Positions 39,743 to 54,498 of a stretch of DNA of 64,000 nucleotides are shown piece after piece. This DNA is from a virus. The translations under genes and the position numbers were made by a program. The stretch lies in the IMG/VR virus record IMGVR_UViG_3300020182_000007; one strand, given 5' to 3'. Every line of letters begins with the position of its first letter. Position 1 is the first letter of the stretch. The notes beneath the pieces were generated by a model. The model had not been told where the DNA came from and did no database searches. It saw nothing but the letters and a program-made list of their open reading frames with translations.

Positions 39743-39790
39743 CTGATTATCTTAAAGTCTTAATCTTGACTAGATGTTATATATCCAATT

Positions 39791-39899: not shown

Positions 39900-40257
39900 C
39901 TTGTTTATATAAGCTTGCAATATATGCAGTCACTCCATAATCAAGTAGGATATATGTCTTACCATCTATTCCCCAGTTCTCAGGATTATGAAGATCGCAG
40001 TTATTAAAACCAAACTCGGGAATCAATTCCTTGATACGAATAACCACATTATTTGGTATTGATGAGACTGTATTATATCTTTTCTGACAAACGATACCCA
40101 TCCACGCCCATTTTAGCTCCGCCAAAGAGATAGTATCGCGGTACTTATCCCAAATCTTCTTTTCATTAAGTCCTTGTAAATATCCTTTTCTACTTACTGG
40201 AATCTTAATAACTACATTCCTTAGAATGAAAACGAGTCTTGTTGAATATTTAATCAA
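39892..40257 (-). CDS. Minimal protein-kinase-like fold protein
   Basis: VVIKIP (VAIK-like), E, DLHNPENW (catalytic loop-like) and LLDYG (DFG-like). Confidence 0.6.
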   Translation of the reverse strand: MIKYSTRLVFILRNVVIKIPVSRKGYLQGLNEKKIWDKYRDTISLAELKWAWMGIVCQKRYNTVSSIPNNVVIRIKELIPEFGFNNCDLHNPENWGIDGKTYILLDYGVTAYIASLYKQEN

Positions 40258-40265
40258 ATAACTTT

Positions 40266-41021: not shown

Positions 41022-41024
41022 GGT

Positions 41025-41237
41025 TTATATATCGTTGTTTTTTCTTGATCGCGTCGATCTTACAGGTGTTGTATTAGTAGGTCTTATATTACTATTTCCA
41101 TTATTGTTTCTAATCACAGGAACTACCAGATTCTCTCTAATAACTCTTCTCGGTTTTGTGGTATTGTTATTAATTGGTGTAGTATTAGTTCTAATAACTC
41201 TTCTCGGTTTTGTAGTTCCTTTAGTAGATTCTATCAT
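41025..41237 (-). CDS. Low-complexity Arg/Thr/Asn-rich ORF, possibly a gene remnant
   Basis: TTKPRRVIR twice; in frame with the stop codon of the upstream CCA gene. Confidence 0.35.
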   Translation of the reverse strand: MIESTKGTTKPRRVIRTNTTPINNNTTKPRRVIRENLVVPVIRNNNGNSNIRPTNTTPVRSTRSRKNNDI

Positions 41238-41300
41238 AGAAGCATGTGCCTTGCCATTTCCTGTAGTTGTTCTAGAATATGCACCTAATAAACTTCCACG

Positions 41301-42455
41301 TCATATTGATTGTTTAAAAATTTTTGTTTCTATTTCTTTAATTTTTTGTGCTATTTGAGGACCTTTTACACCAAACTCTTTTATTACCTTGTTTCCGTCA
41401 GTACTTGGTTTGTATTTTAAGAATGCTCTTATTAGCTTAAGATCTAATCTATTTATCTTTGAGAATACAATAATGTTGTTTTTATCCAATACCGTTCTTT
41501 CGAATTCTTTGTATAAATCAAAAACTCCTTCAGGTTTAAATGTTAATAGACTTTTTAAGAATATGACGCAATTTACTTCATCACTAGAGAAAGTCATTCG
41601 ATTCATCTCTTTTTTAATCAACTCACGGTCGTTGTTACCAAATATTGTTGCTAACTGTACTAACCATAGGCTTGACTCTATAAAATTCTCGCTAACTTGT
41701 AGATTAGGAAACATTACTGGCCAGAGGTTAAACTCGCTTACCATTTTTAGGTAGTCTTTTGTCTTCTTTGCGGATTCAATTGATTTTTTAAACTCATCTC
41801 TAATTCTCTCAGGACTAACACCCTCTAAATTATTATCGGTTAAAATAGCATCTGCAGTTTCTTTCTCAAGCCTTGATCCTGTTTTACCCGCAAATCGAAG
41901 GGCTCTTAACTTTCTTAATGGATCCTCAGCAAATCTTTCTGCGGCGATTCCAACAGTTCTAATCTTTTGATCTTGAATATCTCTTAAACCACCTACTAGA
42001 TCTATAACTTCACCCTTACTAATATCATAGAAAAGAGCATTAATTGTTAGGTCTCTTCTGAGAACGTCTTTATCTATTGTTGAGTAATTTACACCTTCAG
42101 GTCGTCTGCCACTTCCGATATCCTCGCGAAAGGTTGCGATCTCAACTCCATTTCTATCTGAAGGAATCTGTACGATAACGACTCCAAATTGCTGCCCAAC
42201 TTCTCCAATTGTTGAGTATCCAGCAGCTGTTACTATTTTAACAACCTCTTCTGGAAAAGCATCAGTTGCTAAGTCAAAATCCTTTGGCTTTTTACCAAGT
42301 ATCGCATCACGAACTGCACCTCCTACAATATAGAGCTCTTTGCCGTTCTCTTTAAATAGTTTATGTAGGTCAATAACATCAGACGGCACGTTGAGCTTAA
42401 GTGTACTCTGTGCTTCAGTTAGCAACTTAAATTCTGTATATGTTTTTATCTTCAT
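41301..42455 (-). CDS. cca: CCA-adding tRNA nucleotidyltransferase / poly(A) polymerase family
   Basis: VGGAVRD, DFDLAT, RRDLTINAL, EDPLRKLRALRFA and SPERI; leader MKIKTYTEFKLLTEA. Confidence 0.9.
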   Translation of the reverse strand: MKIKTYTEFKLLTEAQSTLKLNVPSDVIDLHKLFKENGKELYIVGGAVRDAILGKKPKDFDLATDAFPEEVVKIVTAAGYSTIGEVGQQFGVVIVQIPSDRNGVEIATFREDIGSGRRPEGVNYSTIDKDVLRRDLTINALFYDISKGEVIDLVGGLRDIQDQKIRTVGIAAERFAEDPLRKLRALRFAGKTGSRLEKETADAILTDNNLEGVSPERIRDEFKKSIESAKKTKDYLKMVSEFNLWPVMFPNLQVSENFIESSLWLVQLATIFGNNDRELIKKEMNRMTFSSDEVNCVIFLKSLLTFKPEGVFDLYKEFERTVLDKNNIIVFSKINRLDLKLIRAFLKYKPSTDGNKVIKEFGVKGPQIAQKIKEIETKIFKQSI

Positions 42456-42486
42456 GTCAATAATGTTATTTAATTATATATTCTGT

Positions 42487-43776
42487 TTAAAATGTCCTTT
42501 CTCCTTCGTAAATTCCTTTCATTACTGGAAATCTTAACGATTCTTCTCCTTTATCGTTCTTTGTGGTTTCGAAGTACTGCACTGTTATTGTTTTTCCTAA
42601 GATTTGATCAGGGTTTTCAAAGAAGTATCTTTTTTGTTCGTGAGAAAATCCAGAGCCAACTTGAACCCTGTTTCCTTTATGTTCAACCACAACATTTTTG
42701 AGCATTAACTCATCAACCTCTTTTCCTTCTACAATAACTCTATTTACTGCGTTTTCAAGATCTACAACAACGTATTCGTCATCAAAGAATTTCTTAACTT
42801 TAAGAATATCATTAGAACGTTTTCCTTGATAGGTATCATCTTTGCGTAACATTAGTCCTTCCCAACCCTCGTTCTTAGAGATCTCCATCATATCTTCTAG
42901 TAGATCATCGCTTCCTATTCTCTGGTCTAATACCTTGATAAATTTATTGTCTAATGATATAGATTTAAGAGATTCTAGTCTTTCACTTAGAAGTGATGTA
43001 GATACTTCTTCGTTAAACTCTGTTAATGTTAATAGATCAAACATAAAATATACAGGATTTTCGATTGTGTGATCTTTTCTCTTGATCTCTTTAATAATTC
43101 CTTGAAAATCTTCGTTTCCATCTTTATCAGTCATACAAATCTCTCCATCAATAACCATATTTGTAAGTCCTAATTTCTGAATAGAAGGCTTTAAAGAATC
43201 TAATGTTAAGAACGGCTTTCCAGCTCTACTAAAGAAATTAACATTTCCAATCTCGTCAATTATTGTTAAACAACGAACACCATCTAATTTGCGGCTAACG
43301 TACCAGTTATCATTCCAATCTACTTTCTTTGAGGTTTTTTCGTTATATGTGTTTGCTAACGCTACGTCAAACGTTGGAATTAACCCTGGAACTACTTTGT
43401 TAATCATAGAAGTCGTAGAACGTGTCTTTAGGTTTCTATCAATAATATTCCAAATAAGATCTGCGTATACATAGTTCTCTTGTACAAATCTATTGACGTT
43501 TGCAATTGCAGCATGTCCTGTACAAACTCTATTATTTAAGTCATCTAATAAACCGAAGAAATCTCCATAAGTATTTGGATGACCCATAAGATCTGAATTC
43601 TTTTTACAGTTCTTAGAAGTTACTCCATATTGCTTATAAGTATCATAAGTATATAGAAGAGCCTTCTTAACGCTATCATACTGGGTGTACGTCTTTAATA
43701 CATCAAGCTTGTCTGTGTTTGAGTTAGTTGTGTTTGATTGTTCAACGAAATCATAAATTAATTGTAAGTCTGTCAT
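42487..43776 (-). CDS. lig: ATP-dependent DNA ligase
   Basis: KLDGVR (KxDG), DGE, YFMFD, EGLMLR and LKVK motifs plus an OB domain. Confidence 0.95.
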   Translation of the reverse strand: MTDLQLIYDFVEQSNTTNSNTDKLDVLKTYTQYDSVKKALLYTYDTYKQYGVTSKNCKKNSDLMGHPNTYGDFFGLLDDLNNRVCTGHAAIANVNRFVQENYVYADLIWNIIDRNLKTRSTTSMINKVVPGLIPTFDVALANTYNEKTSKKVDWNDNWYVSRKLDGVRCLTIIDEIGNVNFFSRAGKPFLTLDSLKPSIQKLGLTNMVIDGEICMTDKDGNEDFQGIIKEIKRKDHTIENPVYFMFDLLTLTEFNEEVSTSLLSERLESLKSISLDNKFIKVLDQRIGSDDLLEDMMEISKNEGWEGLMLRKDDTYQGKRSNDILKVKKFFDDEYVVVDLENAVNRVIVEGKEVDELMLKNVVVEHKGNRVQVGSGFSHEQKRYFFENPDQILGKTITVQYFETTKNDKGEESLRFPVMKGIYEGERTF

Positions 43777-43874
43777 TTTGTTTTATTTTTAATTATAGTA
43801 TAAATATAATCATTTAAAATGAATCGGGAAAACTTTCGGTGATTTATTTTCAAAAAGTTATTAACAATTTCACA

Positions 43875-43901
43875 TAAAAAAACCCGAATCTAGTTCGGGT
43901 T
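43875..43901 (-). terminator. Rho-independent terminator
   Basis: Minus strand AACCCGAA-CTAGA-TTCGGGTT followed by a T run. Confidence 0.8.
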
Positions 43902-43922
43902 TAAATATTTAATGTATATAAT

Positions 43923-45407
43923 TTAATCCTTTTCAAATATTATGCCTCCATGATTATCTCCCTTTGATTCAACTGGTAGATACTCGCTGTCAAATGAAGT
44001 TGCCATAAATGTTTTAAATGGATTAACCGAACATCCTATTCTTTCCATAAATTTACGATTTATTAGGATAGGAGTTGATTTATCAGTCCTATCTCCTAGA
44101 CAAACATAGACGTCGTTATAAGTTTTACCAGAAAATGTAATATCTAATTCAATAATAGGTCTTCTATGGGTATCTTCTCCAACCTCTGGTTCAGAGAATC
44201 CAATAATATCATTTTCGAATTTCTTATCTCCAAGTTCCCATTTGACTGATTTTTTATCTTTGGATATATCGATCTTATCATAAGTTAGAGTGTTTGCTGC
44301 TCCTCCATTACCAGTATCGAATTTTGCTACTATATCTCCGATACCCTTAATACCTACGGCTTCTCTAAATCCTACAGTTTTTCTAGATCTTATCCAATTT
44401 TCTTTATCTGCAAGAAAATCAATAACATCCTTTACTACATCTACTCCGGTAGCTTTTTTAAGACCTTCCGTTCCAGGAGATGCATTAACCTCAAGCACGT
44501 AGTTTTTACCAGTCTTTGCGTCTACTATAATATCAACGCCACACCAGTTACATCCAATAGCTTTAGCGCTTTCAATTGCAATTTGTTTTTGTTCGGGTGT
44601 TAGCTCAGTTTTTTCAACAGTTCCTCCTAGTGTATAATTAGTTCTAAAATCATCTCCAACTTTATTTCTTCTCATGTAACCTAATAGAACTGAATCAGTT
44701 TCTGACGGAACTGGAGAGTTAAATCTACGAGTCAATACATGAATTCTTAGATCGTATTCTGTTTCTATTTTTTCTTGAATAAGTAGTTCAACACTAGGAT
44801 TAGCTTTCCATATTGTCTGAATTACCGATTTTAAAGATGTTGATGAATCAACAATAGAAACACCAATACCTTGGGATCCTGATAGCATTTTAAGAACTAG
44901 TGGGAATTTACCACCTATTGCAGCAACTGCACTATCTAAAGATTCTTCGTTATCTATGAGTGACATTTTAGGAATTGGAATTCCAGCGTCTGCTAATATT
45001 TTAGAAGTGGTGTACTTGTTTTCACATGTCATTACTGAATCAAGAGTGTTGACAACAAAGAAATTAGCCAACTCTAATTGTTCAACAATATCTCTAGTAT
45101 ACGTACTTTTAACTATTCCTCTCCTTGTTAAAATAACAGTATCTTCAGAAGATATTTTCATTTTAGATTTATCATCAGAAATAGTAAATGACTCTTTGTC
45201 TTTGTTAAGATCTAATTGAACTGAATCGACGCTAATTACGGCAATCTGAATTCCTTGCTTTTTACATTCAGCAATAATACCAGGAACCGATTTTGACTCT
45301 GTATTTATATTTGAAAGTAAAACTACTTTGGGCTTGTCTTGAGATTTACTTGCTTTTTTAGCTTCGTTAATCACAAAATCTTGATATGATAATATTCTAG
45401 TCGACAT
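43923..45407 (-). CDS. rimK: RimK-family ATP-grasp ligase fused to a retropepsin-like (DTG) protease domain
   Basis: ENKY, FPLVLK..GSQG.GV, QEKI, DLRI, FRTNY.LGG, GVDII and EVNASPG; C-terminal AKFDTGNG and ILINRKFM; leader MSTRILSYQDFVINEA. Confidence 0.88.
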   Translation of the reverse strand: MSTRILSYQDFVINEAKKASKSQDKPKVVLLSNINTESKSVPGIIAECKKQGIQIAVISVDSVQLDLNKDKESFTISDDKSKMKISSEDTVILTRRGIVKSTYTRDIVEQLELANFFVVNTLDSVMTCENKYTTSKILADAGIPIPKMSLIDNEESLDSAVAAIGGKFPLVLKMLSGSQGIGVSIVDSSTSLKSVIQTIWKANPSVELLIQEKIETEYDLRIHVLTRRFNSPVPSETDSVLLGYMRRNKVGDDFRTNYTLGGTVEKTELTPEQKQIAIESAKAIGCNWCGVDIIVDAKTGKNYVLEVNASPGTEGLKKATGVDVVKDVIDFLADKENWIRSRKTVGFREAVGIKGIGDIVAKFDTGNGGAANTLTYDKIDISKDKKSVKWELGDKKFENDIIGFSEPEVGEDTHRRPIIELDITFSGKTYNDVYVCLGDRTDKSTPILINRKFMERIGCSVNPFKTFMATSFDSEYLPVESKGDNHGGIIFEKD

Positions 45408-45439
45408 TGCTTTAATTATTTTTTATAGTCTATATATTT

Positions 45440-45479
45440 AAAAAAGGGAGAGCTAACCTACCGAAGCTATACTCTCCCT
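45440..45479 (-). terminator. Terminator-like hairpin
   Basis: Minus strand AGGGAGAG...CTCTCCCT-TTTT. Confidence 0.7.
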
Positions 45480-45759
45480 GACATCTCTCCGTCAAGAGAC
45501 CACTTTAGTTTTTTTCTCATAGGAAACCATTTTAAAATATTTTAAAATCTGGCTAGCCTTAAAGCATTTTTTTTGGTAAAATCGATAGTAATTCTCACTC
45601 TATCTAGTAACCAAGCATATACGAATTTTGTTTTTAGGAACAACTCTTGCGCTCTGCTCTGGAGCCATATTAAACCCTCGGTATAAAATTCTATTATTAT
45701 ATTTTATTGTATTGCTAATTCTAGAACTGTTAGTTATATATCATCGTAATGTTTTTAAT

Positions 45760-46110
45760 ATACATAAAGCAACTGGGAATCGAACCCATCTCAAACGCTT
45801 TGCAGCGATCTTGGAAACCAATCCTCGTTTGTTTAATTGTCGAGATTAGTCGCGATATGCATAATTTGCCCAGATAAAACGGTCTGTGCTGGATTTTAAC
45901 GGTTTGATTTCATATTGAAACAATCACATTAGTGTCTTACCACATAAAACAAAGTCAAACTACTTGGAGGGTGTGTTGTGTCCCATAGATCCAAGACCTC
46001 ACTCATTGATTATATAGGCTTCGCGAGGTTGTTGCCTGTAGGGTTTAAGGACTACCTACAAGTCCCGGAGTGTTTTAAGTTCCGCGTTACTATCGATAAA
46101 TGTAAGAACT
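45760..46110 (-). ncRNA. Candidate structured non-coding RNA with H-type pseudoknot and 3' T-arm-like hairpin
   Basis: No credible minus-strand ORF; GGACT/AGTCC plus TGTAGG/CCTACA pseudoknot; stems ACCTCGC/GTGAGGT, CTTGGA/TCCAAG, GTTTGA/TCAAAC and CAAACG/CGTTTG; TGGG-TTCGATT-CCCA. Confidence 0.5.
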
Positions 46111-46357
46111 TTTAATTTAATAGTTATATACAGAATTTAAAAAGGGTTTCAAAATTAATTGCATAAAAAAAGACATACGTTGATTGTATGCCTTTTTATA
46201 ATAAAGAAAGGTTTCGGGTATTTCAAGGTTACAGGTTTGCAATCGTAATACTAACCTTTGTTCTTTGTGTGTTTTGCCTAACTGCTTCACTACCTCTCTT
46301 TCAAAAGACTTATCATGGGACGCTGTTCTTACGGGTAGCGTGATAAGTACAGTACTA

Positions 46358-46783
46358 TTAAGAATATTCTGGTGTATCGATAATCTTTTTCTTAATAAGG
46401 ATATCGATAAAATCTCTAAACGGCATGCCAACTTTAGTTCCTGCTATGTTTTTATCTCCTTCAACAAATGCGCCATCGAAATAATAGTCATTTCCGTTGT
46501 CAGCAGCAACCGTAATTAGAGTGCCTAGCATAAAACTACCAGGAACTCTTACTTTTGAACCATGCAATACCTTTACGCTGTTTTTATTAAATCCGCTTAA
46601 ATACATTTCTTCACGAGCAGTATCTGGTCCTCCTGGGTTTCCTCCTGCGTTCTGTAGTGCTTCACCTTCTGGAGTGTCTATTTCGGCGTATAGCACTGCG
46701 ATAATTTCGTTTGCTAAATCTTGATCTCTTCCTACCTTCAATCCTTCATTTAAGAATTGTTCAAATAATTGTATGTGTTTCAT
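46358..46783 (-). CDS. Protein with capsid-targeting-like leader
   Basis: Real start MKHIQLFEQFLNEG at 46783. Confidence 0.75.
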   Translation of the reverse strand: MKHIQLFEQFLNEGLKVGRDQDLANEIIAVLYAEIDTPEGEALQNAGGNPGGPDTAREEMYLSGFNKNSVKVLHGSKVRVPGSFMLGTLITVAADNGNDYYFDGAFVEGDKNIAGTKVGMPFRDFIDILIKKKIIDTPEYS

Positions 46784-46796
46784 TTTGTTTTGTTTT

Positions 46797-47084
46797 TTAT
46801 TTAATTTTCCAGCTAGCAAAAGCGTCATTGACATTTATTTGATTAGCATATATTGTTTCTTTTTTCCAAGATTTAGATGAAGTAATACCAGAATCACCTT
46901 TATGTTCTACTTCAATTGTACTATCTTCTGGCTTGGATTTATCTAATTTAATTGATTTTATTACACCAGAAATAACATCACCTTTTAATCTGAAATAAAT
47001 CTCTTGCTTAGGTTTAAACGTTTGGCCATCATGTGCTAATACGCCTTCGTTTAAGAATTGTTCGTATAATTTAATGTGTTTCAT
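46797..47084 (-). CDS. Protein with capsid-targeting-like leader
   Basis: MKHIKLYEQFLNEG. Confidence 0.75.
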   Translation of the reverse strand: MKHIKLYEQFLNEGVLAHDGQTFKPKQEIYFRLKGDVISGVIKSIKLDKSKPEDSTIEVEHKGDSGITSSKSWKKETIYANQINVNDAFASWKIK

Positions 47085-47090
47085 TTTATT

Positions 47091-47408
47091 TTATTTTTGT
47101 TTTATTACATGTGGTAATAGGTGTAAGTATAATGAGTGTACGTCTTCCCAGAATGCATTTCTAGAAAAATCTGCAACACTATCGTATCTTGAAATATTAT
47201 TCCACCAATCATCAAATATATCTTCAAATTCACTTTCCGTAAATTTAAACATTTTAGGATCCAGCATGTTCCAAATATCTGCAACTTCTTCAGCATTATT
47301 AATTGCCTGAGATACTTCTTTATATTCTTTAGTTTTACTGTCTTTTTTCATTTGAGAAAAGCTAGTTTTCTCGCTAACGAATTGTTCGAATAATCTAACG
47401 TGTTTCAT
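47091..47408 (-). CDS. Protein with capsid-targeting-like leader
   Basis: MKHVRLFEQFVSEK; GATATATA upstream. Confidence 0.75.
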   Translation of the reverse strand: MKHVRLFEQFVSEKTSFSQMKKDSKTKEYKEVSQAINNAEEVADIWNMLDPKMFKFTESEFEDIFDDWWNNISRYDSVADFSRNAFWEDVHSLYLHLLPHVIKQK

Positions 47409-47499
47409 ATTTCTTGTATTTTGTGCTTTTACTATATATCTTATTTTAGCTTGATAAATTTAGCTTGCTAAATATGTTTCATCCTATTAGTATTTATCA

Positions 47500-47540
47500 A
47501 AATATGGCAGACTAGAATATGATTCCAAACTGCCATATTA
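47500..47540 (-). terminator. Rho-independent terminator
   Basis: Minus strand AATATGGCAG...CTGCCATATT-TT. Confidence 0.7.
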
Positions 47541-47557
47541 AATAGATTGTGTAATTT

Positions 47558-48166
47558 TTAAGACATTGCGTCAATTACTAATGATTTACCTCTACGTATG
47601 CGATTTTTAACTGTTTGTAATGGTACTCCATATTTATTAGCAATATCTTCGTATTTCATCTTTGCAATTAATCTGTCTGCGAGAATATCACGATACATTG
47701 GTTTAAGATTGTTAATACACTCTAGCGCATTTCCATATCTTTCCATTAGTTCATTTTCTTCGTCCCAGAATTCAGCTTCAGATTTATCTGTGTGATCTTC
47801 CATAGCCATGCTTAGAGTTTCATTCAGTCTACTGTTACCATTAACTTCTATACCGAACTCTTTCATTCCATCTAAACTATACTTTTTATTACGTTCTCTA
47901 ATATACCCTAAGCTCTCGTTAAACGCAATACGATAAAGCCATGTAGTAATTTGATATTGTGGCTTATATTGTTCAATTTTAGTCCAGAGTTTAATAAGAG
48001 TATTTGCCATAACGTCTTCTACAGCTTCTTGATCTTTAAGAATTTTCCAAATATAACTCTTTAATCCTGGCCTAACTCTATTGTAAAGCTCGTTATATGT
48101 TTTTTCATCACGATGCTCGAAGAATGCTTCTCCTAATTCTCTGTACGTTTTTTTTGTTTTACTCAT
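47558..48166 (-). CDS. ECF-type sigma-70 factor
   Basis: Region 2 AVEDVMANTLIKLW...TWLYRIAFN and region 4 MKYEDIANKYGVPLQTVKNRIRRGK. Confidence 0.88.
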   Translation of the reverse strand: MSKTKKTYRELGEAFFEHRDEKTYNELYNRVRPGLKSYIWKILKDQEAVEDVMANTLIKLWTKIEQYKPQYQITTWLYRIAFNESLGYIRERNKKYSLDGMKEFGIEVNGNSRLNETLSMAMEDHTDKSEAEFWDEENELMERYGNALECINNLKPMYRDILADRLIAKMKYEDIANKYGVPLQTVKNRIRRGKSLVIDAMS

Positions 48167-48262
48167 AAGTATATGTTTGTTTTTTAATTATAGTATAAAT
48201 ATAATCATTTAAAATGAATCGGGAAAACTTTTGGTGAATTATTTTCAAAAAGTTATTAACAA

Positions 48263-48484
48263 TTAAAGTTCAAAGTTTTCTTGAAGTTCTTTGATTAACT
48301 TTTTAATCTCTTTTTTATTAAGAGCAATAGTTGTAAAAAAGGTTCCATTATTTCTCATTGTTAATTGAAGTTTCATACCTTCTTTACCTCCACTGAATCT
48401 TGTCAATGACATTTCAGTGTTTTCAAATTCAGAAGCTTCTTCGTTCCAATTCTTACCTTTAAGTGATTTTAATTCTGTTGACAT
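48263..48484 (-). CDS. Hypothetical protein
   Basis: 73-aa ORF flanked on both sides by promoter-repeat elements. Confidence 0.6.
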   Translation of the reverse strand: MSTELKSLKGKNWNEEASEFENTEMSLTRFSGGKEGMKLQLTMRNNGTFFTTIALNKKEIKKLIKELQENFEL

Positions 48485-48578
48485 ATCTTGTACGTTTTTT
48501 AATTATAGTATAAATATAATCATTTAAAATGAATCCTGAAAACTTTTGGTGAATTATTTTCAAAAAGTTATTAACAAT

Positions 48579-49094
48579 TTACAAATCTTGAAATATACCA
48601 ACCACTTTCTGTAGTTCCTGTGGCTTAAACTTCCATAAATCGGCAGAAACATTAATTCTTCTTTCTTTAGGATCTGACCTATGTTTAGGATCTGGGTTTC
48701 CAATAATAGACCAATACCCATTATTCTTTTCAGGCCAATCTAAAAGAGGCCAATAAGATATAGTAACTTCCATTTTATGAAGCGGCATAATTGGTGGGTT
48801 TAGTTTGCTATTATCCGTTAACATGTTTTTTGTCGCTAGCTCCAATATGGGCTTATCATGTTCTCCAGCAATAAACCAAATCGTACCATTAAGCTTGCTT
48901 ATGGCATCTTGTGCTGTTTTAGGATCCCATGCAAAATTACCAAGATGATATACAAGGTCATCTTTTCCGACAATACTATTCCATGTTTGAATAATCTTTT
49001 TATCCATTTCGTCAACATTCTTAAATGGACGGTTATACTTTTTAATAGCAGATGGCCTACCTATCTGTAGGTTAGAAATTACAAATCTTTTCAT
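48579..49094 (-). CDS. Calcineurin-like metallophosphoesterase fold with substituted metal ligands
   Basis: ISNLQIG, YHLGNF and AGEHD in place of SDxH, GD and GNHD. Confidence 0.7.
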   Translation of the reverse strand: MKRFVISNLQIGRPSAIKKYNRPFKNVDEMDKKIIQTWNSIVGKDDLVYHLGNFAWDPKTAQDAISKLNGTIWFIAGEHDKPILELATKNMLTDNSKLNPPIMPLHKMEVTISYWPLLDWPEKNNGYWSIIGNPDPKHRSDPKERRINVSADLWKFKPQELQKVVGIFQDL

Positions 49095-49188
49095 TATTTA
49101 ATTGCTGTCTTTATTATCGACAAGGCAAGGTGATATATCACCTTGCCTTTAATTGTCAATACTGTTTTGAATATTAAAATCTATGCTA

Positions 49189-49713
49189 CTATAAATTTGT
49201 TGATGATTCTTCTAATTCTGCGTCAACGCTTTCGGTTTGATCAGCAGCTGCCTCAAGTTCTTTAATCTCTTCGTCTAATTGAGAAAGCTCCATATGAACA
49301 TTTTGAATTTCGGTGTTCATTTCGCCTAGAGATTTCATAGCATCAGTTACTGCTTCACCTACTAGTGTTAACATTCTGATAAAGCGTCTAGCGCTTTCTA
49401 CTCCAGTACCTTCTACTGCAAGAAGTGCTTGATAAAGACCATTTAATTCATATGCCTTTAAAGAAACAACAGCGTCTTCAGAATCTGAAAGATCTTTGTA
49501 TTGTTGTTTTAATCTGTCGTGGAGTGTTACAACTACTGCAGCATTTTGGGTTTTCCAAGTGTACCCTTTATCAAGGTGCTCAATAATTGTTTTAATAACT
49601 TTACGATCTTCTAGATCTAATTGAAATTGGTGTTCGGCATTGTGTAATTGTAATTCTTCTGCCTTCTTTTCTAGCTCAGTTCTTTTAGAGCTTAGTGTTT
49701 TGATGTTACTCAT
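49189..49713 (-). CDS. Coiled-coil hypothetical protein
   Basis: 174-aa helical, acidic ORF. Confidence 0.55.
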   Translation of the reverse strand: MSNIKTLSSKRTELEKKAEELQLHNAEHQFQLDLEDRKVIKTIIEHLDKGYTWKTQNAAVVVTLHDRLKQQYKDLSDSEDAVVSLKAYELNGLYQALLAVEGTGVESARRFIRMLTLVGEAVTDAMKSLGEMNTEIQNVHMELSQLDEEIKELEAAADQTESVDAELEESSTNL

Positions 49714-49748
49714 ATTTGTTAATTTAAATGTTACTGTTTATATATTTG

Positions 49749-50222
49749 TTAAAAATTATTGTTCGTTACTCTAAAATCAAAGTCTTCAAATTTTTCAAAT
49801 TGAAGATCATCAGCATCTAATCTCCTTAATAGCGTGTCATTTGTATCATTCCTGTTGTTTAATCTTTCTATTCTAGATTTTCGATCAATGTCTAAATAAA
49901 TTACCATAGCCTGGTCTCTGTATTCTTTTGGTAAAATATCTAAACCGTCCTTAGACATAATCATTACGTCTGCATTATCGAAATCTTCTTTAGTTTGTCC
50001 ATAAAATCCTCCATTAAAGTCCATGTGCTCGATAAATTTATCGTTTCCTACCATTTCAATGAATTCAAACTCAGATATAAAATGATAATCAACACCATCT
50101 ACTTCACCATTTCTTGGTTTCCTAGTCGTATGACTAATTCCTGCCTTAAATCCGCGTTCACGTAATCTATTTTTTAAATGGTCTTTACCAGATGCCGCTT
50201 TTCCTACTAGTATTATTTTCAT
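49749..50222 (-). CDS. gmk: Guanylate kinase
   Basis: GKAASGKD P-loop and SHTTRKPRNGEVDGVDYHFIS. Confidence 0.92.
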   Translation of the reverse strand: MKIILVGKAASGKDHLKNRLRERGFKAGISHTTRKPRNGEVDGVDYHFISEFEFIEMVGNDKFIEHMDFNGGFYGQTKEDFDNADVMIMSKDGLDILPKEYRDQAMVIYLDIDRKSRIERLNNRNDTNDTLLRRLDADDLQFEKFEDFDFRVTNNNF

Positions 50223-50256
50223 TGATTAGTTATATGTTTAGTTTTTAAAAAGTTTA

Positions 50257-51117
50257 TTAATTAGTATATGCATTTGGATTCGGTAGTCCTGAGTAGTGGT
50301 CCCATTCAGATTCTACATCTAATATATCCCATTTTGGATCATACCAAAAACGTCTACCTGTTTTATCAACAACATTGGACATTGTTTCATTTCCATAGCA
50401 TAAAAAGAAATCTGATTTTGTTTTTATATAATCAGTATCGTTTTTAAATGGGTTAACCCAATCTTTTATTTGACCACCTCCTAATACATAAGCAAGGTCA
50501 GGTACTGCTTTACAAAGCATGAATAATTCTTCACCTGACTGTTCAATGACATCCCTTGCCTTTGTGAAAGGATTTAAAGTTTCCATTCTGTATAATATCT
50601 CAGCCCGTAAATAGTTGCCAATTCCGTTAAAGTATTTTTGGTTCATTAATACCTCATTAATAGGCTTATCAAACTCTTTCTTATTAATATTATCAAGTAT
50701 ATTCTTTTTAAATTCTTCAAATTCAAAAGTTGGATCTGGTCCTCTATTGTCAGACCATTCAAATCCTGGTTTCCATTTGCCAAACCTCCTGACGTCAACA
50801 AAAGACAGCGTGTGGTCGTCAGTTGACTTAAACATTAAATGTGCATGTTTATTTTCATTTCCAGATTGTGATAACCTGAAGTGTCCTGACATTCCCATCG
50901 TCATTCGAACCGGTATTACCTCATTAGTATCTGCTTCTCGTATATAAACAATAAGTTCTTTCCCTCTGCTTTTTGCCATCATCCAAAACTTTTTAAAGGG
51001 TACATCAAAGAGTGTTCCCTTATGCGCTGGATTCTTTTTAATACTTTCAAAGGTACGCCCAGAAGCTGCTTTGTTAATATAGTCGGCTGTTAATTTAAGT
51101 TCTGCTAATTCAGGCAT
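50257..51117 (-). CDS. nei: Fpg/Nei-family DNA glycosylase/AP lyase, NEIL1-like (zincless finger)
   Basis: MPE N-terminus, RGKEL, GMSG, FVDVRRFG, H2TH FNGIGNYLRAEILYR, and C-terminal CYG...MS...D..GR..W. Confidence 0.93.
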   Translation of the reverse strand: MPELAELKLTADYINKAASGRTFESIKKNPAHKGTLFDVPFKKFWMMAKSRGKELIVYIREADTNEVIPVRMTMGMSGHFRLSQSGNENKHAHLMFKSTDDHTLSFVDVRRFGKWKPGFEWSDNRGPDPTFEFEEFKKNILDNINKKEFDKPINEVLMNQKYFNGIGNYLRAEILYRMETLNPFTKARDVIEQSGEELFMLCKAVPDLAYVLGGGQIKDWVNPFKNDTDYIKTKSDFFLCYGNETMSNVVDKTGRRFWYDPKWDILDVESEWDHYSGLPNPNAYTN

Positions 51118-51454
51118 CTTGTATTTTTTTAGATTTGATTCTTAATATTGATTCTACACAGTCAGAGAAATCTCCATAATATACTCTACTGCCAATACTC
51201 CATGATGTTAATTCATTCTTTGTATATTCTGCATCCCAAGTTTTCCAATCATAAATGGTAAATGTATCTCCATTAAAATCAAATACCCATTCAAAATTTA
51301 CTTTACCATCTCCAGATTCTTGATCAAATGTTGGTTGGCCGAACGCTTCGATTAAATCAACGTATTTTGTATTAAAAAGATTCCCTGATTTAGAAGTTCC
51401 ATGCATCATATCAAATGCTTGATTTTTATCTGTTATTTTTTCTAATTTTATCAT
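51110..51454 (-). CDS. Hypothetical protein
   Basis: 114-aa ORF with FGQP...EW...TIYDWK pattern. Confidence 0.6.
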   Translation of the reverse strand: MIKLEKITDKNQAFDMMHGTSKSGNLFNTKYVDLIEAFGQPTFDQESGDGKVNFEWVFDFNGDTFTIYDWKTWDAEYTKNELTSWSIGSRVYYGDFSDCVESILRIKSKKIQDA

Positions 51455-51455
51455 A

Positions 51456-51698
51456 TTATAGTTTGCGTAAAATATTATAAATCGATACAGGATATCTCAT
51501 TGTTCTTCTTTTTTTGTTTTTCCATTTTGATTCTACAGTAAACGTGAACCATGGTTCTCCATAATGCGCCTCTAGTTTTTCACATCTTTCTTCTATCTTA
51601 CCAGACATTGTAGAACCTGCAAATGAAAAAACATAATTCTGTCCTATTTTAGGTTTCTTAACTGATATTACCTTTAGCTCTTCTTTCTTCTTTGTCAT
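51456..51698 (-). CDS. Hypothetical protein
   Basis: 80-aa ORF downstream of a promoter repeat. Confidence 0.55.
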   Translation of the reverse strand: MTKKKEELKVISVKKPKIGQNYVFSFAGSTMSGKIEERCEKLEAHYGEPWFTFTVESKWKNKKRRTMRYPVSIYNILRKL

Positions 51699-51787
51699 TG
51701 TTTGTTTTTTAATTATAGTATAAATATAATCATTTAAAATGAATCGGTAAAACTTTTAGTGATTTATTTTCAAAAAGTTATTAACAA

Positions 51788-52465
51788 TTAAGGATTACAG
51801 TATTCTTTTCTTAGTAACATTATTACATCCTTCGCATCTTCTAGTGCATCATGTGCAACATCTCCTGGTAAATTAGCACGTTGCTTGCATGTTGAAAGGC
51901 TAGGTAAACTTTCATCATCTACCCAATTAGTATATAAAATGCTAGGATCTAAGATTCTTTGGCGTACTCTTACTAATTGCTTCCATCTTGGGAGTTGCTC
52001 TAAGAATTTGAGATCGAATGTTCCAAAGTTTTTACCAGCGGCTGTGATATTTACTGGCTTTGTCTTATTTGTAATCATTGGTGCTGGAAGTCCATCTCGA
52101 CTTGTTGTAGTATACTGAGATTTTCCAAGTTCTGTAAAACCATTAGCGGCTAGCCAATAATAAAATTCTTCTACAATCTCGTGATTATTGTAGAATTTCA
52201 TGCCAGTTGTTTTTTCCAGATTAGACCTATCTCCATAATTATTAATGCCTTGATATTCTACAATATTAGATATTAAGTCTCGATTCATATCAATTGCGTA
52301 TGCATCTCCACTAATATTTATTTGACTAATCACTCCATGGAATTTTGGCAAATCTTCAATATGTTCTATATTATTCGTATCTTCTATTACTGCTCCAATG
52401 CTAAGCACTTGGCATGTTTTAGGATCTAGACCTGTCGTCTCGATATCTATACTTAAATAACGCAT
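51788..52465 (-). CDS. DEDDh 3'-5' exonuclease (DnaQ-like)
   Basis: SIDIETTG, GKNFGTFD, LDP and HDALEDA. Confidence 0.88.
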   Translation of the reverse strand: MRYLSIDIETTGLDPKTCQVLSIGAVIEDTNNIEHIEDLPKFHGVISQINISGDAYAIDMNRDLISNIVEYQGINNYGDRSNLEKTTGMKFYNNHEIVEEFYYWLAANGFTELGKSQYTTTSRDGLPAPMITNKTKPVNITAAGKNFGTFDLKFLEQLPRWKQLVRVRQRILDPSILYTNWVDDESLPSLSTCKQRANLPGDVAHDALEDAKDVIMLLRKEYCNP

Positions 52466-52656
52466 ATTTATAATCTATCTTTATAATTAATCATCTTTGT
52501 TTTGGTTTATATGATAATGAGACTCCTATATTAAACCATCCAACTATCAATTCATATTCTTCCGGAAGAAGTATATCATGAGTTATCTTAATGAATGGTA
52601 ATACATGGAATTGACCTACTATTATGTGTTTACTTATCTTCATCTTCTAGTTTGTT

Positions 52657-53301
52657 TCAAATGTTATTAGTTGTTCTTTCATTTTCTAATTCCTCTAATT
52701 CTTTTTCCAATCTAGAAATACTACCAATACTACCCCACATTGGATTTGCTTTTGGATTTATTGCTTTAATTTGCTCAACTAATTCAGTTTGTCTACCTTT
52801 ACTATAAAATCTATTTTCAATAGCACTTGCCAATTCTTGTAAGTGTTCCGGTCCATAAATACTAATTCTTAAATCATAATCAGACCATTTTGTTTTCCAA
52901 TCAACAAACATAATACCATTAGTTAATTTCTTTTCTAGATTATGTAGTCTACGATTTCTAACTCTAACTATTGAATTATCTGAACCAAAAAGGTGTAAAA
53001 ATCTTAAGAACCATCTTGGACACCATTTTGGTTTGGCTTCATAATCTAATGCAAGAACTAATGGAAATAACGCCCTGTAGTGTATAGTGTTCTCGTTCCA
53101 AACTAAAGTTCCTAAATATCTGTATTTCTCAGCGAAATCCTTTGGAAAGAAAACAGCACGAATATCTTTGAATCCAATATTCATTGTGTGAATAATTCCT
53201 TTCTTTCGTCCCATCCAGAATAATATACTTTGCCCGAATGATTTAGCCTTCTCGCTAAACGTTCTCGTATCTTTTATTTCAAATCTACTTTTGACTATCA
53301 T
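52657..53301 (-). CDS. Hypothetical protein
   Basis: 214-aa ORF. Confidence 0.6.
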   Translation of the reverse strand: MIVKSRFEIKDTRTFSEKAKSFGQSILFWMGRKKGIIHTMNIGFKDIRAVFFPKDFAEKYRYLGTLVWNENTIHYRALFPLVLALDYEAKPKWCPRWFLRFLHLFGSDNSIVRVRNRRLHNLEKKLTNGIMFVDWKTKWSDYDLRISIYGPEHLQELASAIENRFYSKGRQTELVEQIKAINPKANPMWGSIGSISRLEKELEELENERTTNNI

Positions 53302-53313
53302 AACTTTTATTTT

Positions 53314-53994
53314 TTAGAATAATATATTTGATTCAGGATCCCAATCTATAGTTATTGGCTTATTTACTTGGTCATATCTTTCGTTTAATACTGATGCATT
53401 AATGAAATGTGTACCATTGTGGAATTTATAACCGTAACTTCCGTGAATATGCCCAAATACATGAACCTTTGGTGGTTGATTATCTACCTTAACTCTTAAC
53501 AATTCACAACCAAGATTTCCTTCATTATATGGAGGACCACTAATATCTAAATGACCTTGTGGTGGTCCATGTGTAATAAGAATATCTGTATCTTTTGGGA
53601 TTGCATTCCACTTTTCTTCAAGTTCTTTACCATTTCTAGGAAGATTAAATGCCCAATTACAAAATTCAGGTTGCCAAGGAGTTCCATAAATAACTAATTG
53701 TTGGTCCTCCTCATCCCATAAATCTAATTGCTCATCTTGTAAATAAGTAACATCATAGTCGTTTACAATTGTATTTGCTTCTAATGGATGATTTTCAAAC
53801 ATTCGGTCATGATTACCTGCAATAAAGATTTTATGTTTGTAATCTTGTGCTCCAAACCATTCACAGAATGCATGGATATCTGATTTGCTATAACCACTAT
53901 TCATTATATCCCCAGCATGAATTAGTAAATCTCCACCAGGCAAATCTAATTGCTTATGCTTAGTGTGAGTATCTGATATACATGTTATCTTCAT
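53314..53994 (-). CDS. Metallophosphoesterase (intact motifs)
   Basis: SDTH, HAGD, AGNHD, THGPP and GHIH. Confidence 0.92.
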   Translation of the reverse strand: MKITCISDTHTKHKQLDLPGGDLLIHAGDIMNSGYSKSDIHAFCEWFGAQDYKHKIFIAGNHDRMFENHPLEANTIVNDYDVTYLQDEQLDLWDEEDQQLVIYGTPWQPEFCNWAFNLPRNGKELEEKWNAIPKDTDILITHGPPQGHLDISGPPYNEGNLGCELLRVKVDNQPPKVHVFGHIHGSYGYKFHNGTHFINASVLNERYDQVNKPITIDWDPESNILF

Positions 53995-54028
53995 GTTTCT
54001 TTTTAATTAGATCTATTGTTTTAATTCT

Positions 54029-54352
54029 TTAATGTATTACAGTTATACTTCCACTTTTAATGATAGCTTCATTATATCCTCTACATTTCATATAAAATCT
54101 ATAAACATATATTGTATCAAAAGGTAAACCATCCCACCAAACATTTGGATTACTTGACTGAAATACTTGAATACCTGACCTATCATAGATTTCTAAATTG
54201 TAATCTTTAACATTAAGGGTATCTCCAAACTCTGGTTTCCATGTATCATTAATGCCATCACCATTAGGTGTAAATGCATTTGGAATGTAAACTTCTTGAG
54301 ACATTGCATTCATACTAAATACTAATGCTGCTATTGTAATTATCTTTTTCAT
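54029..54352 (-). CDS. Signal peptide plus T9SS type-B sorting (gliding-motility C-terminal, CHU_C) domain
   Basis: YIPNAFTPNGDGINDTWKP...IYDRSG..VF...WWDG...YVY...G.IT. Confidence 0.88.
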   Translation of the reverse strand: MKKIITIAALVFSMNAMSQEVYIPNAFTPNGDGINDTWKPEFGDTLNVKDYNLEIYDRSGIQVFQSSNPNVWWDGLPFDTIYVYRFYMKCRGYNEAIIKSGSITVIH

Positions 54353-54498
54353 ATTTTTTAATTATAGTTAAATATAATCAATTTTATTGATATAAAAAAC
54401 TTTTGTTGAAATGATTTTAAAAAGTTATTAACAATTAGCAGCAGTTGGTTGGGAGTCAACATTCCATTGATCGTCCCAAAATATAATTTCATCTTCCA

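What the first reader, a model, noticed from the sequence alone, without database searches (positions are those of the whole stretch)
50257..51117. Phage DNA glycosylase that resembles animal NEIL1 more than bacterial Fpg/Nei
Seen, compared from memory with human NEIL1: SRGKEL (ARGKEL), GMSGHF (GMSGSF), HAHL, FVDVRRFGKW (FVDIRRFGRW), FDKPINEVLMNQKYFNGIGNYLRAEILYR (FDRPICEALLDQRFFNGIGNYLRAEILYR), PFTKARDV (PFEKARSV), and CYG..MS...DKTGRRFW (CYG..MS...DRHGRTIW). It lacks the bacterial four-Cys zinc finger. This collinear similarity suggests a phage lineage linked to the origin of eukaryotic NEIL1 by horizontal transfer.
Basis: partly seen in the sequence, partly recalled or inferred. Interest (0 to 1): 0.75.

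Follow-up and report, generated by a model that had tools for sequence, protein, structure and literature searches.

The report
NEIL1-type DNA repair glycosylase in phage
A large uncultured tailed phage carries an intact DNA-repair enzyme as similar to animal NEIL1 as an amoeba's NEIL1 is; it belongs to a big, mostly phage-borne family that is the closest known kin of eukaryotic NEIL1, but who gave the gene to whom cannot be resolved.

Summary
Observation confirmed. The ORF at 50257..51117 (-) encodes a 286-aa Fpg/Nei-superfamily glycosylase. It matches human NEIL1 at E=3e-41, against about 1e-8 for bacterial Fpg and mimivirus Nei1 and 0.03 for E. coli Nei. The AlphaFold model (pLDDT 90) has human NEIL1 as all of its top 50 PDB matches (TM 0.79-0.86). 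All catalytic and DNA-binding residues are present, and the finger has no zinc ligands.

The host genome is a contractile-tailed, T4-like large phage, kin to Tenacibaculum and Flavobacterium jumbo phages.

The protein belongs to a family with 142 or more IMG/VR viral contigs, and its nearest Atlas clusters are about 90% Uroviricota. Among 185,579 prokaryote species genomes, only Poribacteria and one Neomarinimicrobiota MAG carry it in cells.

In a careful ML tree this family plus eukaryotic NEIL1 separate cleanly from Fpg/Nei (97/96). Eukaryotes form one clade (90/77), which includes amoebozoans, a euglenozoan, a rhizarian and a choanoflagellate, so NEIL1 is not animal-only. The ML tree makes the short (phage plus bacterial) sequences and the eukaryotes sisters, but only weakly (43/68), and an AU test leaves alternatives open.

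This scan has noted the same family on 20 or more other phage genomes.

The parts
50257..51117 (-). NEIL1-type DNA glycosylase/AP lyase gene (286 aa, P0001). Its ATG overlaps the stop of the upstream ORF by 8 nt.
   Evidence: Pfam Fapy_DNA_glyco 5e-14, H2TH 3e-8, Neil1-DNA_bind 1e-4. Human NEIL1 E=3e-41. Model pLDDT 90.3. The overlap is seen.
51109..51114 (-). Codons for Pro2 and Glu3, the N-terminal nucleophile and the general acid. Glu6 follows.
   Evidence: E3 and E6 are invariant and P2 is at least 90% conserved in 40 family members. They align to NEIL1 P2/E3/E6.
50959..50961 (-). Lys53 in the RGKEL block, equivalent to NEIL1 Lys54.
   Evidence: Invariant in A1 and A2. Alignment to NEIL1.
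50782..50892 (-). Void-filling / intercalation residues Met76 (GMSG), Arg110 and Phe112 (FVDVRRFGKW).
   Evidence: R110 and F112 are invariant and M76 is at least 90% conserved. They align to the NEIL1 GMSG and FVDIRRFGRW blocks. Equivalence to NEIL1 M81/R118/F120 rests on my knowledge of NEIL1 numbering.
50605..50628 (-). H2TH phosphate-binding motif N164-GIGNYLR-171, including Asn168.
   Evidence: N164, G165, G167 and Y169 are invariant; N168 and R171 are at least 90% conserved. The motif is identical to NEIL1 NGIGNYLRAEILYR.
50332..50412 (-). Zincless finger: beta-hairpin residues ~236-262 with Tyr241 and Arg255, and no Cys4/Cys3His ligands.
   Evidence: Pfam PF09292 Neil1-DNA_bind covers 240-260, E=1.2e-4, 22.2 bits (below the GA of 25). 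Strands 247-250 and 256-259 in the model. Y241 invariant, R255 and W258 at least 90% conserved. The CxxC..CxxC of E. coli Fpg/Nei is absent.
50266..50304 (-). Conserved C-terminal peptide W272-Y284 (WDHYSGLPNPNAY) beyond the catalytic core. Candidate docking motif.
   Evidence: Kept in relatives down to about 57% identity. pLDDT about 50, so probably disordered. Function inferred only.
51697..51807 (-). Promoter-like repeat copy heading the transcription unit that contains the glycosylase.
   Evidence: Repeat families D1 (7 copies of 109 nt) and D2 (8 copies of 74 nt), both with a copy here. The next copy downstream is at 48487-48597. Sequence read. Promoter function is inferred.
51110..51698 (-). 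Two small upstream co-oriented ORFs (80 aa and 114 aa) of unknown function in the same unit.
   Evidence: No Pfam or PHROG hit. Homologs of the 114-aa ORF occur in 23 of 80 related loci.
49749..50222 (-). Guanylate kinase, immediately downstream.
   Evidence: Pfam Guanylate_kin 3e-22 and phrog_1815 8e-40. Found in the flanks of the glycosylase gene in 48 of 80 related viral loci, and directly downstream in the loci examined. Also present in L090.
48579..49713 (-). A 174-aa protein of unknown function, read here as coiled-coil from its sequence, and a 171-aa phosphoesterase. These are the last genes of the unit. The phosphoesterase is a candidate 3'-end-cleaning partner.
   Evidence: phrog_547 phosphoesterase 7e-23. 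Both are conserved next to the glycosylase in 44-48 of 80 loci. A 3'-phosphatase role is inference only; there is no PDB sequence match.
42487..43776 (-). ATP-dependent DNA ligase, the likely sealing step of phage-encoded base excision repair.
   Evidence: Pfam DNA_ligase_A_M 6.5e-21 plus OB_2; phrog_114 7e-78. Its pathway role is inferred.

Best explanation
The gene encodes an active, bifunctional DNA glycosylase/AP lyase of the NEIL1 type, in minimal form: the NEIL1 catalytic core without the animal inserts and disordered tail.

Inferred mechanism, by homology with NEIL1. After removal of Met1, the Pro2 amine attacks C1' of an everted oxidised base (thymine glycol, 5-hydroxyuracil, Fapy purines, hydantoins). 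Glu3 and Lys53 assist. Met76, Arg110 and Phe112 fill the gap left in the helix. Asn168 of the H2TH motif and Arg255 of the zincless finger hold the lesion-strand phosphates. Beta,delta-elimination then leaves a one-nucleotide gap with a 3'-phosphate.

A phosphatase would then clean that end (possibly the co-transcribed phosphoesterase, or a host enzyme). A polymerase and the phage ATP-dependent ligase would finish the repair. The enzyme thereby protects replicating phage DNA from oxidative and photo-oxidative damage.

The gene is a vertically inherited part of a conserved block in a lineage of large T4-like phages, probably infecting Bacteroidota. Its family, mostly phage-borne, is the closest known relative of eukaryotic NEIL1.
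For: Family and fold:
- Human NEIL1 scores E=3e-41 against about 1e-8 for any Fpg.
- Pfam finds the three Fpg/Nei/NEIL1 domains.
- The AF2 model has pLDDT 90.3 and pTM 0.86. All top-50 Foldseek PDB hits are human NEIL1, TM 0.79-0.86, 34-36% identity.

Functional residues across 40 diverse family members:
- Invariant: E3, E6, K53, R110, F112, N164, G165, G167, Y169, Y241.
- At least 90% conserved: P2, M76, N168, R255.
- The same columns hold in the alignment with named eukaryotic NEIL1s.

Phage setting:
- IMG/VR virus record with tail sheath, tail fibre, ligase and sigma factor.
- Nearest tail sheaths are metagenomic huge phages and Tenacibaculum/Flavobacterium jumbo phages.

Stable inheritance:
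- 142 IMG/VR contigs carry homologs at 52-77% identity.
- The block glycosylase > gmk > 174-aa protein > phosphoesterase > sigma factor is kept in 44-48 of 80 loci.

Repair context elsewhere: UvdE lies next to the gene in two other lineages.

Phylogeny: the NEIL1-type superclade separates from 8 Fpg/Nei outgroups at 97/96*, and eukaryotes form one clade at 90/77.
Against: - No biochemical data exist for any member of the phage clade.
- H2TH (34.0 bits against a cut-off of 34.7) and Neil1-DNA_bind (22.2 against 25) fall just under Pfam's gathering scores for this protein.
- The lesion-capping loop (about residues 215-235, pLDDT 66-76) differs from NEIL1's loop. The phage clade has a conserved GGGQ(L/I)KDWxNP instead, so substrate range may differ.
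- No AP endonuclease, PNK 3'-phosphatase, UvdE or HhH glycosylase was found in the 148.8-kb record. That record is only about 49% complete.
- The phosphoesterase's role is pure inference.
- The sister relation of the short (phage plus bacterial) sequences to eukaryotes has weak support, 43/68.
Confidence: 0.8

Rival explanations
1. Modified-base maintenance. The enzyme's main job is to remove decay or oxidation products of a modified pyrimidine in the phage's own DNA (for example products of 5-hydroxymethylcytosine), rather than general oxidative lesions.
For: The phage record has, beside a canonical thymidylate synthase, a divergent paralog. Its best solved relative is T4 dCMP hydroxymethylase (E=1.4e-17), ahead of true thymidylate synthases at 1e-10 or weaker. 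A 959-aa double glycosyltransferase lies in the window. The lesion-capping loop differs from NEIL1. An earlier scan note on another phage proposed the same idea.
Against: The hydroxymethylase-like gene lies about 76 kb from the glycosylase in the record, so there is no linkage. No TET/JBP hit was found, although that search had no positive control. The glycosylase's conserved neighbours are a kinase, a phosphoesterase and a sigma factor, not modification genes. The modification itself is unproven.
Confidence: 0.15
2. Evolutionary reading A. Eukaryotic NEIL1 descends from this phage-borne lineage, or from a bacterium that shared it with phages, by ancient horizontal transfer into an early eukaryote.
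For: The Fpg/Nei superfamily is overwhelmingly bacterial (established knowledge). The only close non-eukaryotic kin of NEIL1 found are phage-borne, plus two small bacterial groups: 11 loci in 185,579 species genomes, of which at least 2 are mis-binned phage contigs. The short, phage-type clade holds 92 of the 151 NEIL1-type rows in the overview tree against 58 in the eukaryote-rich clade, drawn from the best 150 clusters at 50% identity. The ML tree has eukaryotes as one clade arising beside the short (phage plus bacterial) radiation.
Against: A sister relation gives no direction. The backbone is unresolved: 23 forks under 80, short-sequence monophyly 43/68, AU p=0.395 for eukaryote+bacteria. 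The outgroups are distant (20-27% identity), so the root is fragile. The wide eukaryotic spread would put any transfer very deep, where signal is weakest.
Confidence: 0.35
3. Evolutionary reading B. The gene went the other way, from a eukaryote into symbiotic bacteria such as sponge-associated Poribacteria and from there into phages, where it radiated.
For: Poribacteria, which include sponge symbionts (established knowledge), carry the gene in true bacterial context as their only Fpg/Nei member. A eukaryote+bacteria clade is not rejected (AU p=0.395).
Against: In both trees the bacterial clade sits among the short, phage-type sequences and not with sponges or other animals. Eukaryote monophyly excluding them has 90/77 support. 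The diversity and sequence spread of the phage clade would have to post-date the transfer. Other genomes of the same bacterial phylum have ordinary Fpg instead, which suggests replacement in a subgroup.
Confidence: 0.1
4. Non-repair role. The protein is used offensively or in conflict, for example nicking host DNA or countering host glycosylase-based defences.
For: Phages do repurpose DNA enzymes. The conserved disordered C-terminal peptide suggests a specific partner.
Against: Complete conservation of the NEIL1 lesion-processing residues fits a damage-specific enzyme. Fpg/Nei enzymes do not cut undamaged DNA (established knowledge). Co-location with UvdE in other lineages points to repair.
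Confidence: 0.04

Closest known systems
Eukaryotic NEIL1 (endonuclease VIII-like 1; human structures 1TDH, 4NRV, 5ITQ-5ITY, 6LWA-6LWR, 8FTJ)
   Same: Collinear over the whole catalytic core: E=3e-41, 34-36% identity to human and 41-42% to cnidarian and mollusc cores. Same fold (TM 0.79-0.86). Shared features are P2/E3/E6, K53, GMSG, FVDxRRFGxW, RGP, NGIGNYLRAEILYR, the CY...GRxxW zincless finger, and no zinc ligands.
   Different: It lacks the animal insert in the beta-sandwich, the 25-35-residue insert after the H2TH, and the roughly 100-residue disordered C-terminal tail. The lesion-capping loop is different (GGGQIKDWVNPF...). It has its own short conserved C-terminal peptide. The N-terminus reads MPELAE rather than MPEGPE. 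It is encoded by a phage. In the tree it lies outside the eukaryotic clade.
Mimivirus Nei1 (MvNei1, 'viral NEIL1 ortholog'; 3A42/3A45/3A46, 3VK7)
   Same: A virus-encoded Fpg/Nei enzyme with a zincless finger (PMC3188539).
   Different: It is much more distant: E about 1e-8 and 38 bits, no better than bacterial Fpg. It comes from a giant virus of amoebae, not a tailed phage. The phage protein is a far better NEIL1 look-alike than the one virus enzyme so far called a NEIL1 ortholog.
Bacterial Fpg/MutM and Nei (E. coli 1K82, 1K3W; L. lactis, Thermus, Geobacillus)
   Same: Same superfamily and chemistry: N-terminal Pro nucleophile, H2TH, and a finger Arg.
   Different: 20-27% identity. They have a Cys4 zinc finger that is absent here. 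They are separated by the best-supported deep branch of the tree, 97/96*. Fpg-like genes of cultured phages (Bacillus phage G gp292; 'Acinetobacter phage' MutM) group with these, not with the query.
NEIL1-type gene of Candidatus Poribacteria / Neomarinimicrobiota MAGs
   Same: 42-43% identity, the same short architecture, and the same superclade.
   Different: It is chromosomal, sitting among sulfatases, an RlmL-type methyltransferase and an L,D-transpeptidase. It is the only Fpg/Nei gene in those genomes.

Membership tests
Fpg/Nei (H2TH) DNA glycosylase superfamily | N-terminal beta-sandwich domain with Pro2 nucleophile and Glu3 | tested here: met
   PF01149 at 5.3e-14, 53 bits against a cut-off of 25.5, covering residues 1-115. 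MPELAE N-terminus; E3 and E6 invariant, P2 at least 90% conserved.
Fpg/Nei (H2TH) DNA glycosylase superfamily | Helix-two-turn-helix domain with the phosphate-binding Asn | tested here: met
   PF06831 at 3e-8, 34.0 bits, just below the cut-off of 34.7. The motif NGIGNYLRAEILYR is identical to NEIL1. Helices are present in the model.
Fpg/Nei (H2TH) DNA glycosylase superfamily | C-terminal finger (zinc or zincless) presenting a conserved Arg | tested here: met
   Beta-hairpin at 247-250 and 256-259. R255 is at least 90% conserved.
NEIL1 subfamily | Zincless finger: no Cys4/Cys3His, PF09292 type | tested here: met
   One Cys in the last 60 residues. PF09292 hit at 240-260, E=1.2e-4, 22.2 bits against GA 25. 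The same family is recorded in the precomputed Pfam column for many close homologs.
NEIL1 subfamily | Closer in sequence and fold to NEIL1 than to any other Fpg/Nei subfamily | tested here: met
   145 bits against 38 bits or less for all others in PDB. The top 50 structural hits are all NEIL1.
NEIL1 subfamily | Falls inside the clade of eukaryotic NEIL1 orthologs | tested here: not met
   Eukaryotes form their own clade (90/77) that excludes the query. The query lies in the short, phage-type group. It is therefore a sister-group homolog, not an ortholog nested in NEIL1.
NEIL1 subfamily | NEIL1-type lesion-recognition loop (edited Lys/Arg242, Tyr244) and long disordered C-terminal interaction tail | tested here: not met
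   The loop sequence differs and the tail is absent. The residue numbering comes from PDB entry titles and my knowledge.
NEIL1 subfamily | Glycosylase plus beta,delta-lyase activity on oxidised pyrimidines, Fapy and hydantoins | not testable with these tools
   Needs enzyme assays.

The most novel reading that the evidence does not exclude
Eukaryotic NEIL1, a core base-excision-repair enzyme of animals and several protist groups, descends from a glycosylase lineage that lives mainly in large tailed phages. It would have been acquired by an early eukaryote from a phage, or from a phage-infected bacterium. The phage clade would then preserve the ancestral, minimal form of the enzyme.
Probability: 0.3. 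Interest if true: 0.8.

Novelty: new member of a known kind. Interest (0 to 1): 0.6.

Why it matters
NEIL1 is treated in the repair literature as a metazoan subfamily whose only viral 'ortholog' is mimivirus Nei1 (PMC3188539). My literature searches found no paper on a phage NEIL1-type enzyme, and a survey of 224 jumbo phages lists only T4 endonuclease V and UvdE among the backbone-cleaving repair enzymes (PMC7824862).

Three things follow from the results here.
- The nearest kin of NEIL1 form a large, diverse family that is almost exclusively phage-borne, with a small bacterial offshoot.
- NEIL1 itself reaches well beyond animals.
- Many environmental large phages appear to invest in their own oxidative base excision repair.

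This gives a concrete, testable handle on the origin of a human repair enzyme. It also offers a compact natural NEIL1 core, 265-286 aa without disordered regions, for structural and biochemical work. Automatic JGI annotation already calls these proteins 'endonuclease VIII-like 1', so the resemblance is latent in databases although I found it discussed nowhere.

Tried and rejected
- Cultured and GenBank phages (INPHARED, 50,697 records). tblastn found no NEIL1-type homolog, only Fpg-like hits at 31% identity or less. The family therefore seems confined to uncultured phages.
- Look-ups of Poribacteria and Saprospirales proteins by exact sequence failed, because I gave match ranges and not whole ORFs. 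I read the contexts from ORFs plus Pfam/PHROGs instead.
- The 'Flavobacteriaceae' and 'Saprospirales' MAG hits are not cellular carriers. One has a phage gene context. The other is probably the contig that IMG/VR lists as viral: same length of 41,865 b and same range.
- Viral scans seeded with the deep lineages P0147 and P0136 returned only 34-44% identical loci. Those two lineages could not be shown to be viral in this way. Contig contexts were used instead.
- In the 148.8-kb record I searched for UvdE, PNK 3'-phosphatase, Xth-type and Nfo-type AP endonucleases, HhH-GPD glycosylases and TET/JBP. None was found, but the record is about 49% complete and the TET search had no positive control.
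- A PDB sequence search with the co-transcribed 171-aa phosphoesterase gave nothing significant.
- Phylogenetic direction. In the ML tree the short (phage plus bacterial) sequences are already one side of a branch, but weakly (43/68). The AU test of a eukaryote+bacteria clade does not reject it (p=0.395). No direction can be claimed.
- Literature searches for phage NEIL1-type enzymes found nothing relevant.
Full report
**The observation.** The window has an uninterrupted minus-strand ORF at 50257..51117 encoding 286 residues.
- Pfam finds the Fpg/Nei N-terminal domain (5.3e-14), the H2TH domain (3e-8, 34.0 bits against a cut-off of 34.7) and the NEIL1 zincless-finger domain PF09292 (1.2e-4, 22.2 bits against 25).
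- Against all PDB sequences the best hits are 15 distinct human NEIL1 constructs at E=3e-41 to 1e-39, aligned over residues 1-260.
- The next best hits are L. lactis and Thermus Fpg and mimivirus Nei1, at about 1e-8. E. coli Nei reaches 0.03, NEIL2 0.05 and NEIL3 0.5.
- Only one cysteine lies in the C-terminal 60 residues. The CxxC...CxxC finger of E. coli Fpg and Nei has no counterpart.

**What genome this is.** The window is part of a 148,784-base IMG/VR virus record that CheckV rates at about 49% complete.
- It encodes a 966-aa tail sheath, a collagen-repeat tail fibre, an ATP-dependent DNA ligase, a CCA-adding enzyme, a RimK-like ATP-grasp enzyme and a sigma factor.
- All large ORFs lie on one strand and G+C is about 32%.
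- The sheath's nearest relatives are metagenomic 'huge phages' (51% identity to LR756500). Among cultured phages they are the T4-like jumbo phages of Tenacibaculum and Flavobacterium, at 34-35%.
- Related contigs were binned with Flavobacteriaceae and Saprospirales MAGs, and another lineage's contig carries a Por_Secre_tail gene.

A Bacteroidota host is therefore likely. This is an inference.

**Anatomy and structure.** A 40-sequence alignment of diverse family members (36% mean column identity) keeps E3, E6, G52, K53, D108, R110, F112, Q160, N164, G165, G167, Y169, P183 and Y241 invariant. P2, M76, N168, R171, R255 and W258 are at least 90% conserved.
- These are the positions that, in NEIL1, supply the Pro nucleophile and Glu acid, the catalytic Lys, the void-filling Met/Arg/Phe, the H2TH phosphate-binding Asn and the finger Arg. 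The equivalences come from the HMMER alignment. Residue roles are established knowledge of NEIL1.
- AlphaFold2 on this alignment gives pLDDT 90.3 and pTM 0.86.
- All top-50 Foldseek hits in PDB are human NEIL1: TM 0.79-0.86, rmsd 2.3-3.4 Å, 34-36% identity.
- Aligned with named NEIL1s from a coral, Hydra, a whelk, an amoebozoan and a euglenozoan, the phage enzyme is a minimal core. It lacks the animal insert in the beta-sandwich, the insert after the H2TH domain and the long disordered C-tail.
- Its lesion-capping loop differs (GGGQIKDWVNPF..., moderately confident in the model).
- A 13-residue C-terminal peptide, WDHYSGLPNPNAY, is conserved down to about 57% identity but predicted disordered. 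It looks like a docking motif with an unknown partner.

**Genomic setting.** The gene's ATG overlaps the stop of the preceding 114-aa ORF. It lies between two copies of a repeat of about 75-110 nt that occurs eight times in 20 kb, always just upstream of a gene start.
- The unit is an 80-aa ORF, a 114-aa ORF, the glycosylase, guanylate kinase, a 174-aa protein of unknown function that I read as coiled-coil, and a 171-aa phosphoesterase. A sigma-factor gene follows.
- The order glycosylase > gmk > 174-aa protein > phosphoesterase > sigma factor recurs in 44-48 of 80 related viral loci with 54-77% glycosylase identity.
- The gene is therefore a long-standing resident of this phage lineage, not a recent pickup.
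- In two other lineages of the family, a UvdE UV-damage endonuclease sits next to it.
- In the available half-genome I found no AP endonuclease, PNK-type 3'-phosphatase, UvdE or HhH glycosylase.

**Who else has it.**
- A word-indexed search found 2,386 homologs. The best 120 listed have 53-99% identity, with no name or an automatic JGI name of 'endonuclease VIII-like 1' or, for one, 'formamidopyrimidine-DNA glycosylase'. Their contigs range up to 523 kb.
- An exhaustive HMMER scan of 1.84 billion cluster representatives found 161 clusters at E<=1e-30 and 459 at E<=1e-10.
- IMG/VR holds 142 contigs with close relatives of the query.
- The nearest ESM-Atlas clusters are 89-95% viral, with Uroviricota commonest.
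- None of 50,697 GenBank phage records has a close homolog.
- Among 185,579 prokaryote species genomes, a profile-guided scan found only 11 loci. Two are phage contigs binned into MAGs. Seven lie in MAGs titled Candidatus Poribacteria, one in an unnamed 'uncultured bacterium' MAG whose protein groups with them in the overview tree, and one in a Neomarinimicrobiota MAG.
- The Poribacteria copy examined sits among sulfatases, an rRNA methyltransferase, an L,D-transpeptidase and oxidoreductases. It is the only Fpg/Nei-family gene in those genomes. Other genomes of that phylum carry ordinary Fpg instead.
- The long representatives are eukaryotic NEIL1. They come from corals, Hydra, a mollusc, a tardigrade, a ctenophore and a sponge. 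They also come from the choanoflagellate Mylnosiga, the amoebozoans Planoprotostelium and Mastigella, the euglenozoan Ploeotia, the rhizarian Paulinella and an MMETSP protist.

**Phylogeny.** An overview FastTree of 155 sequences and a careful IQ-TREE of 91 sequences agree. The careful tree used LG+C20+F+G4 by PMSF on 264 columns, with eight Fpg/Nei outgroups.
- The NEIL1-type sequences are separated from all Fpg/Nei outgroups by the strongest deep branch (97/96*).
- Eukaryotes form one clade (90/77, in 90% of bootstrap trees).
- Poribacteria plus Neomarinimicrobiota form one clade (99/99*).
- The query sits with IMG/VR and phage contigs.
- The backbone among the short, phage-type lineages is unresolved.
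- In the ML tree the short (phage plus bacterial) sequences are one side of a branch, so they are sister to eukaryotes. Support is only 43/68.
- An AU test does not reject joining the bacterial clade to eukaryotes (delta lnL 6.7, p=0.395).
- Core identities tell the same story. Phage against animal NEIL1 is 41-42%, amoebozoan against animal 37-41%, and any of them against E. coli Fpg/Nei 20-27%.

**Interpretation.** The enzyme is most likely a working NEIL1-type glycosylase/beta,delta-lyase that repairs oxidised bases in phage DNA. The downstream steps are inferred: 3'-phosphate removal, perhaps by the co-transcribed phosphoesterase, then gap filling and sealing by the phage ligase.

A rival worth testing is maintenance of modified bases. 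The record encodes, besides a true thymidylate synthase, a paralog closest to T4 dCMP hydroxymethylase. The window also holds a large double glycosyltransferase.

But the comparison partner is eukaryotic NEIL1, not animal NEIL1, and the direction of transfer cannot be read from a weakly supported sister relation with distant outgroups.

**Known or new.** I found no paper describing NEIL1-type glycosylases in tailed phages.
- The Fpg/Nei phylogeny paper I could read lists NEIL1 as a metazoan subfamily and mimivirus Nei1 as the viral case (PMC3188539).
- A 224-genome jumbo-phage survey mentions only T4 endonuclease V and UvdE (PMC7824862).
- JGI's pipeline does already label these proteins 'endonuclease VIII-like 1'.
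- Within this scan the same family has been noted on at least 20 other phage genomes, with follow-ups reaching the same conclusion. I re-derived the conclusion independently here.

The enzyme itself is a new member of a known kind. The interest lies in its distribution and in what it says about the origin of NEIL1.

Noticed in passing
window 53314..53994 (-): The 226-aa metallophosphoesterase has mammalian MPPED2 as its best solved relative (E=2e-42, aligned over almost its whole length). It is a second strikingly 'eukaryote-like' enzyme, 2 kb from the NEIL1-type gene.
   Followed up: no
L248:1489-2328 (+) = G000:C1 about 129.3-130.2 kb, outside the window: A divergent thymidylate-synthase-family paralog is closest to T4 dCMP hydroxymethylase (1B49, E=1.4e-17) and MilA CMP hydroxymethylase, ahead of true thymidylate synthases. 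A canonical ThyA lies 5 kb away. The phage DNA may carry 5-hydroxymethylcytosine.
   Followed up: partly
window 37082..54418, copies at 37082, 37361, 38517, 43777, 48172, 48487, 51697, 54345: An AT-rich element of about 75-110 nt occurs eight times, each copy directly upstream of a minus-strand gene start. It contains TCATTT(T)AAATGA and TATATTTATAC, so it looks like a phage promoter family that delimits short operons. The phage also encodes its own sigma factor at 47558..48166.
   Followed up: partly
window 50266..50304 (-), residues 272-284 of the glycosylase: The C-terminal peptide WDHYSGLPNPNAY is conserved across relatives down to about 57% identity yet predicted disordered. It is absent from the shorter (259-272 aa) family members. 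It is probably a docking motif.
   Followed up: partly
L092, L094-L098 (Candidatus Poribacteria MAGs); L105-L110: A subgroup of Poribacteria uses the NEIL1-type enzyme as its only Fpg/Nei-family gene, in an ordinary chromosomal context. In a sample of 61 genomes of that phylum, 2 had the NEIL1-type gene and 10 others had a Fpg-family (PF01149) match, of which 8 resemble E. coli Fpg by BLAST and 2 look broken (in-frame stops). This looks like a replacement.
   Followed up: partly
L245:7040-7954 and the unnamed contig of P0144: A UvdE UV-damage endonuclease lies within 0.5-1 kb of the NEIL1-type gene in two separate lineages of the family, suggesting small phage repair islands.
   Followed up: no
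window 22185..25064 (-): A 959-aa protein combines GT1-type and GT9 (heptosyltransferase-like) glycosyltransferase domains. Its target, DNA or cell surface, is unknown.
   Followed up: no
window 40981..47428: A repeat family of five 61-nt copies (40981, 43736, 46743, 47044, 47368) spans the starts of minus-strand genes. It may mark paralogous N-termini or shared translation-initiation regions.
   Followed up: no
eukaryotic representatives P0217, P0268, P0192, P0249, P0248, P0208: NEIL1 homologs occur in Amoebozoa, Euglenozoa, Rhizaria, a choanoflagellate and a marine protist transcriptome. This is at odds with the 'metazoan subfamily' label in the literature I read.
   Followed up: partly
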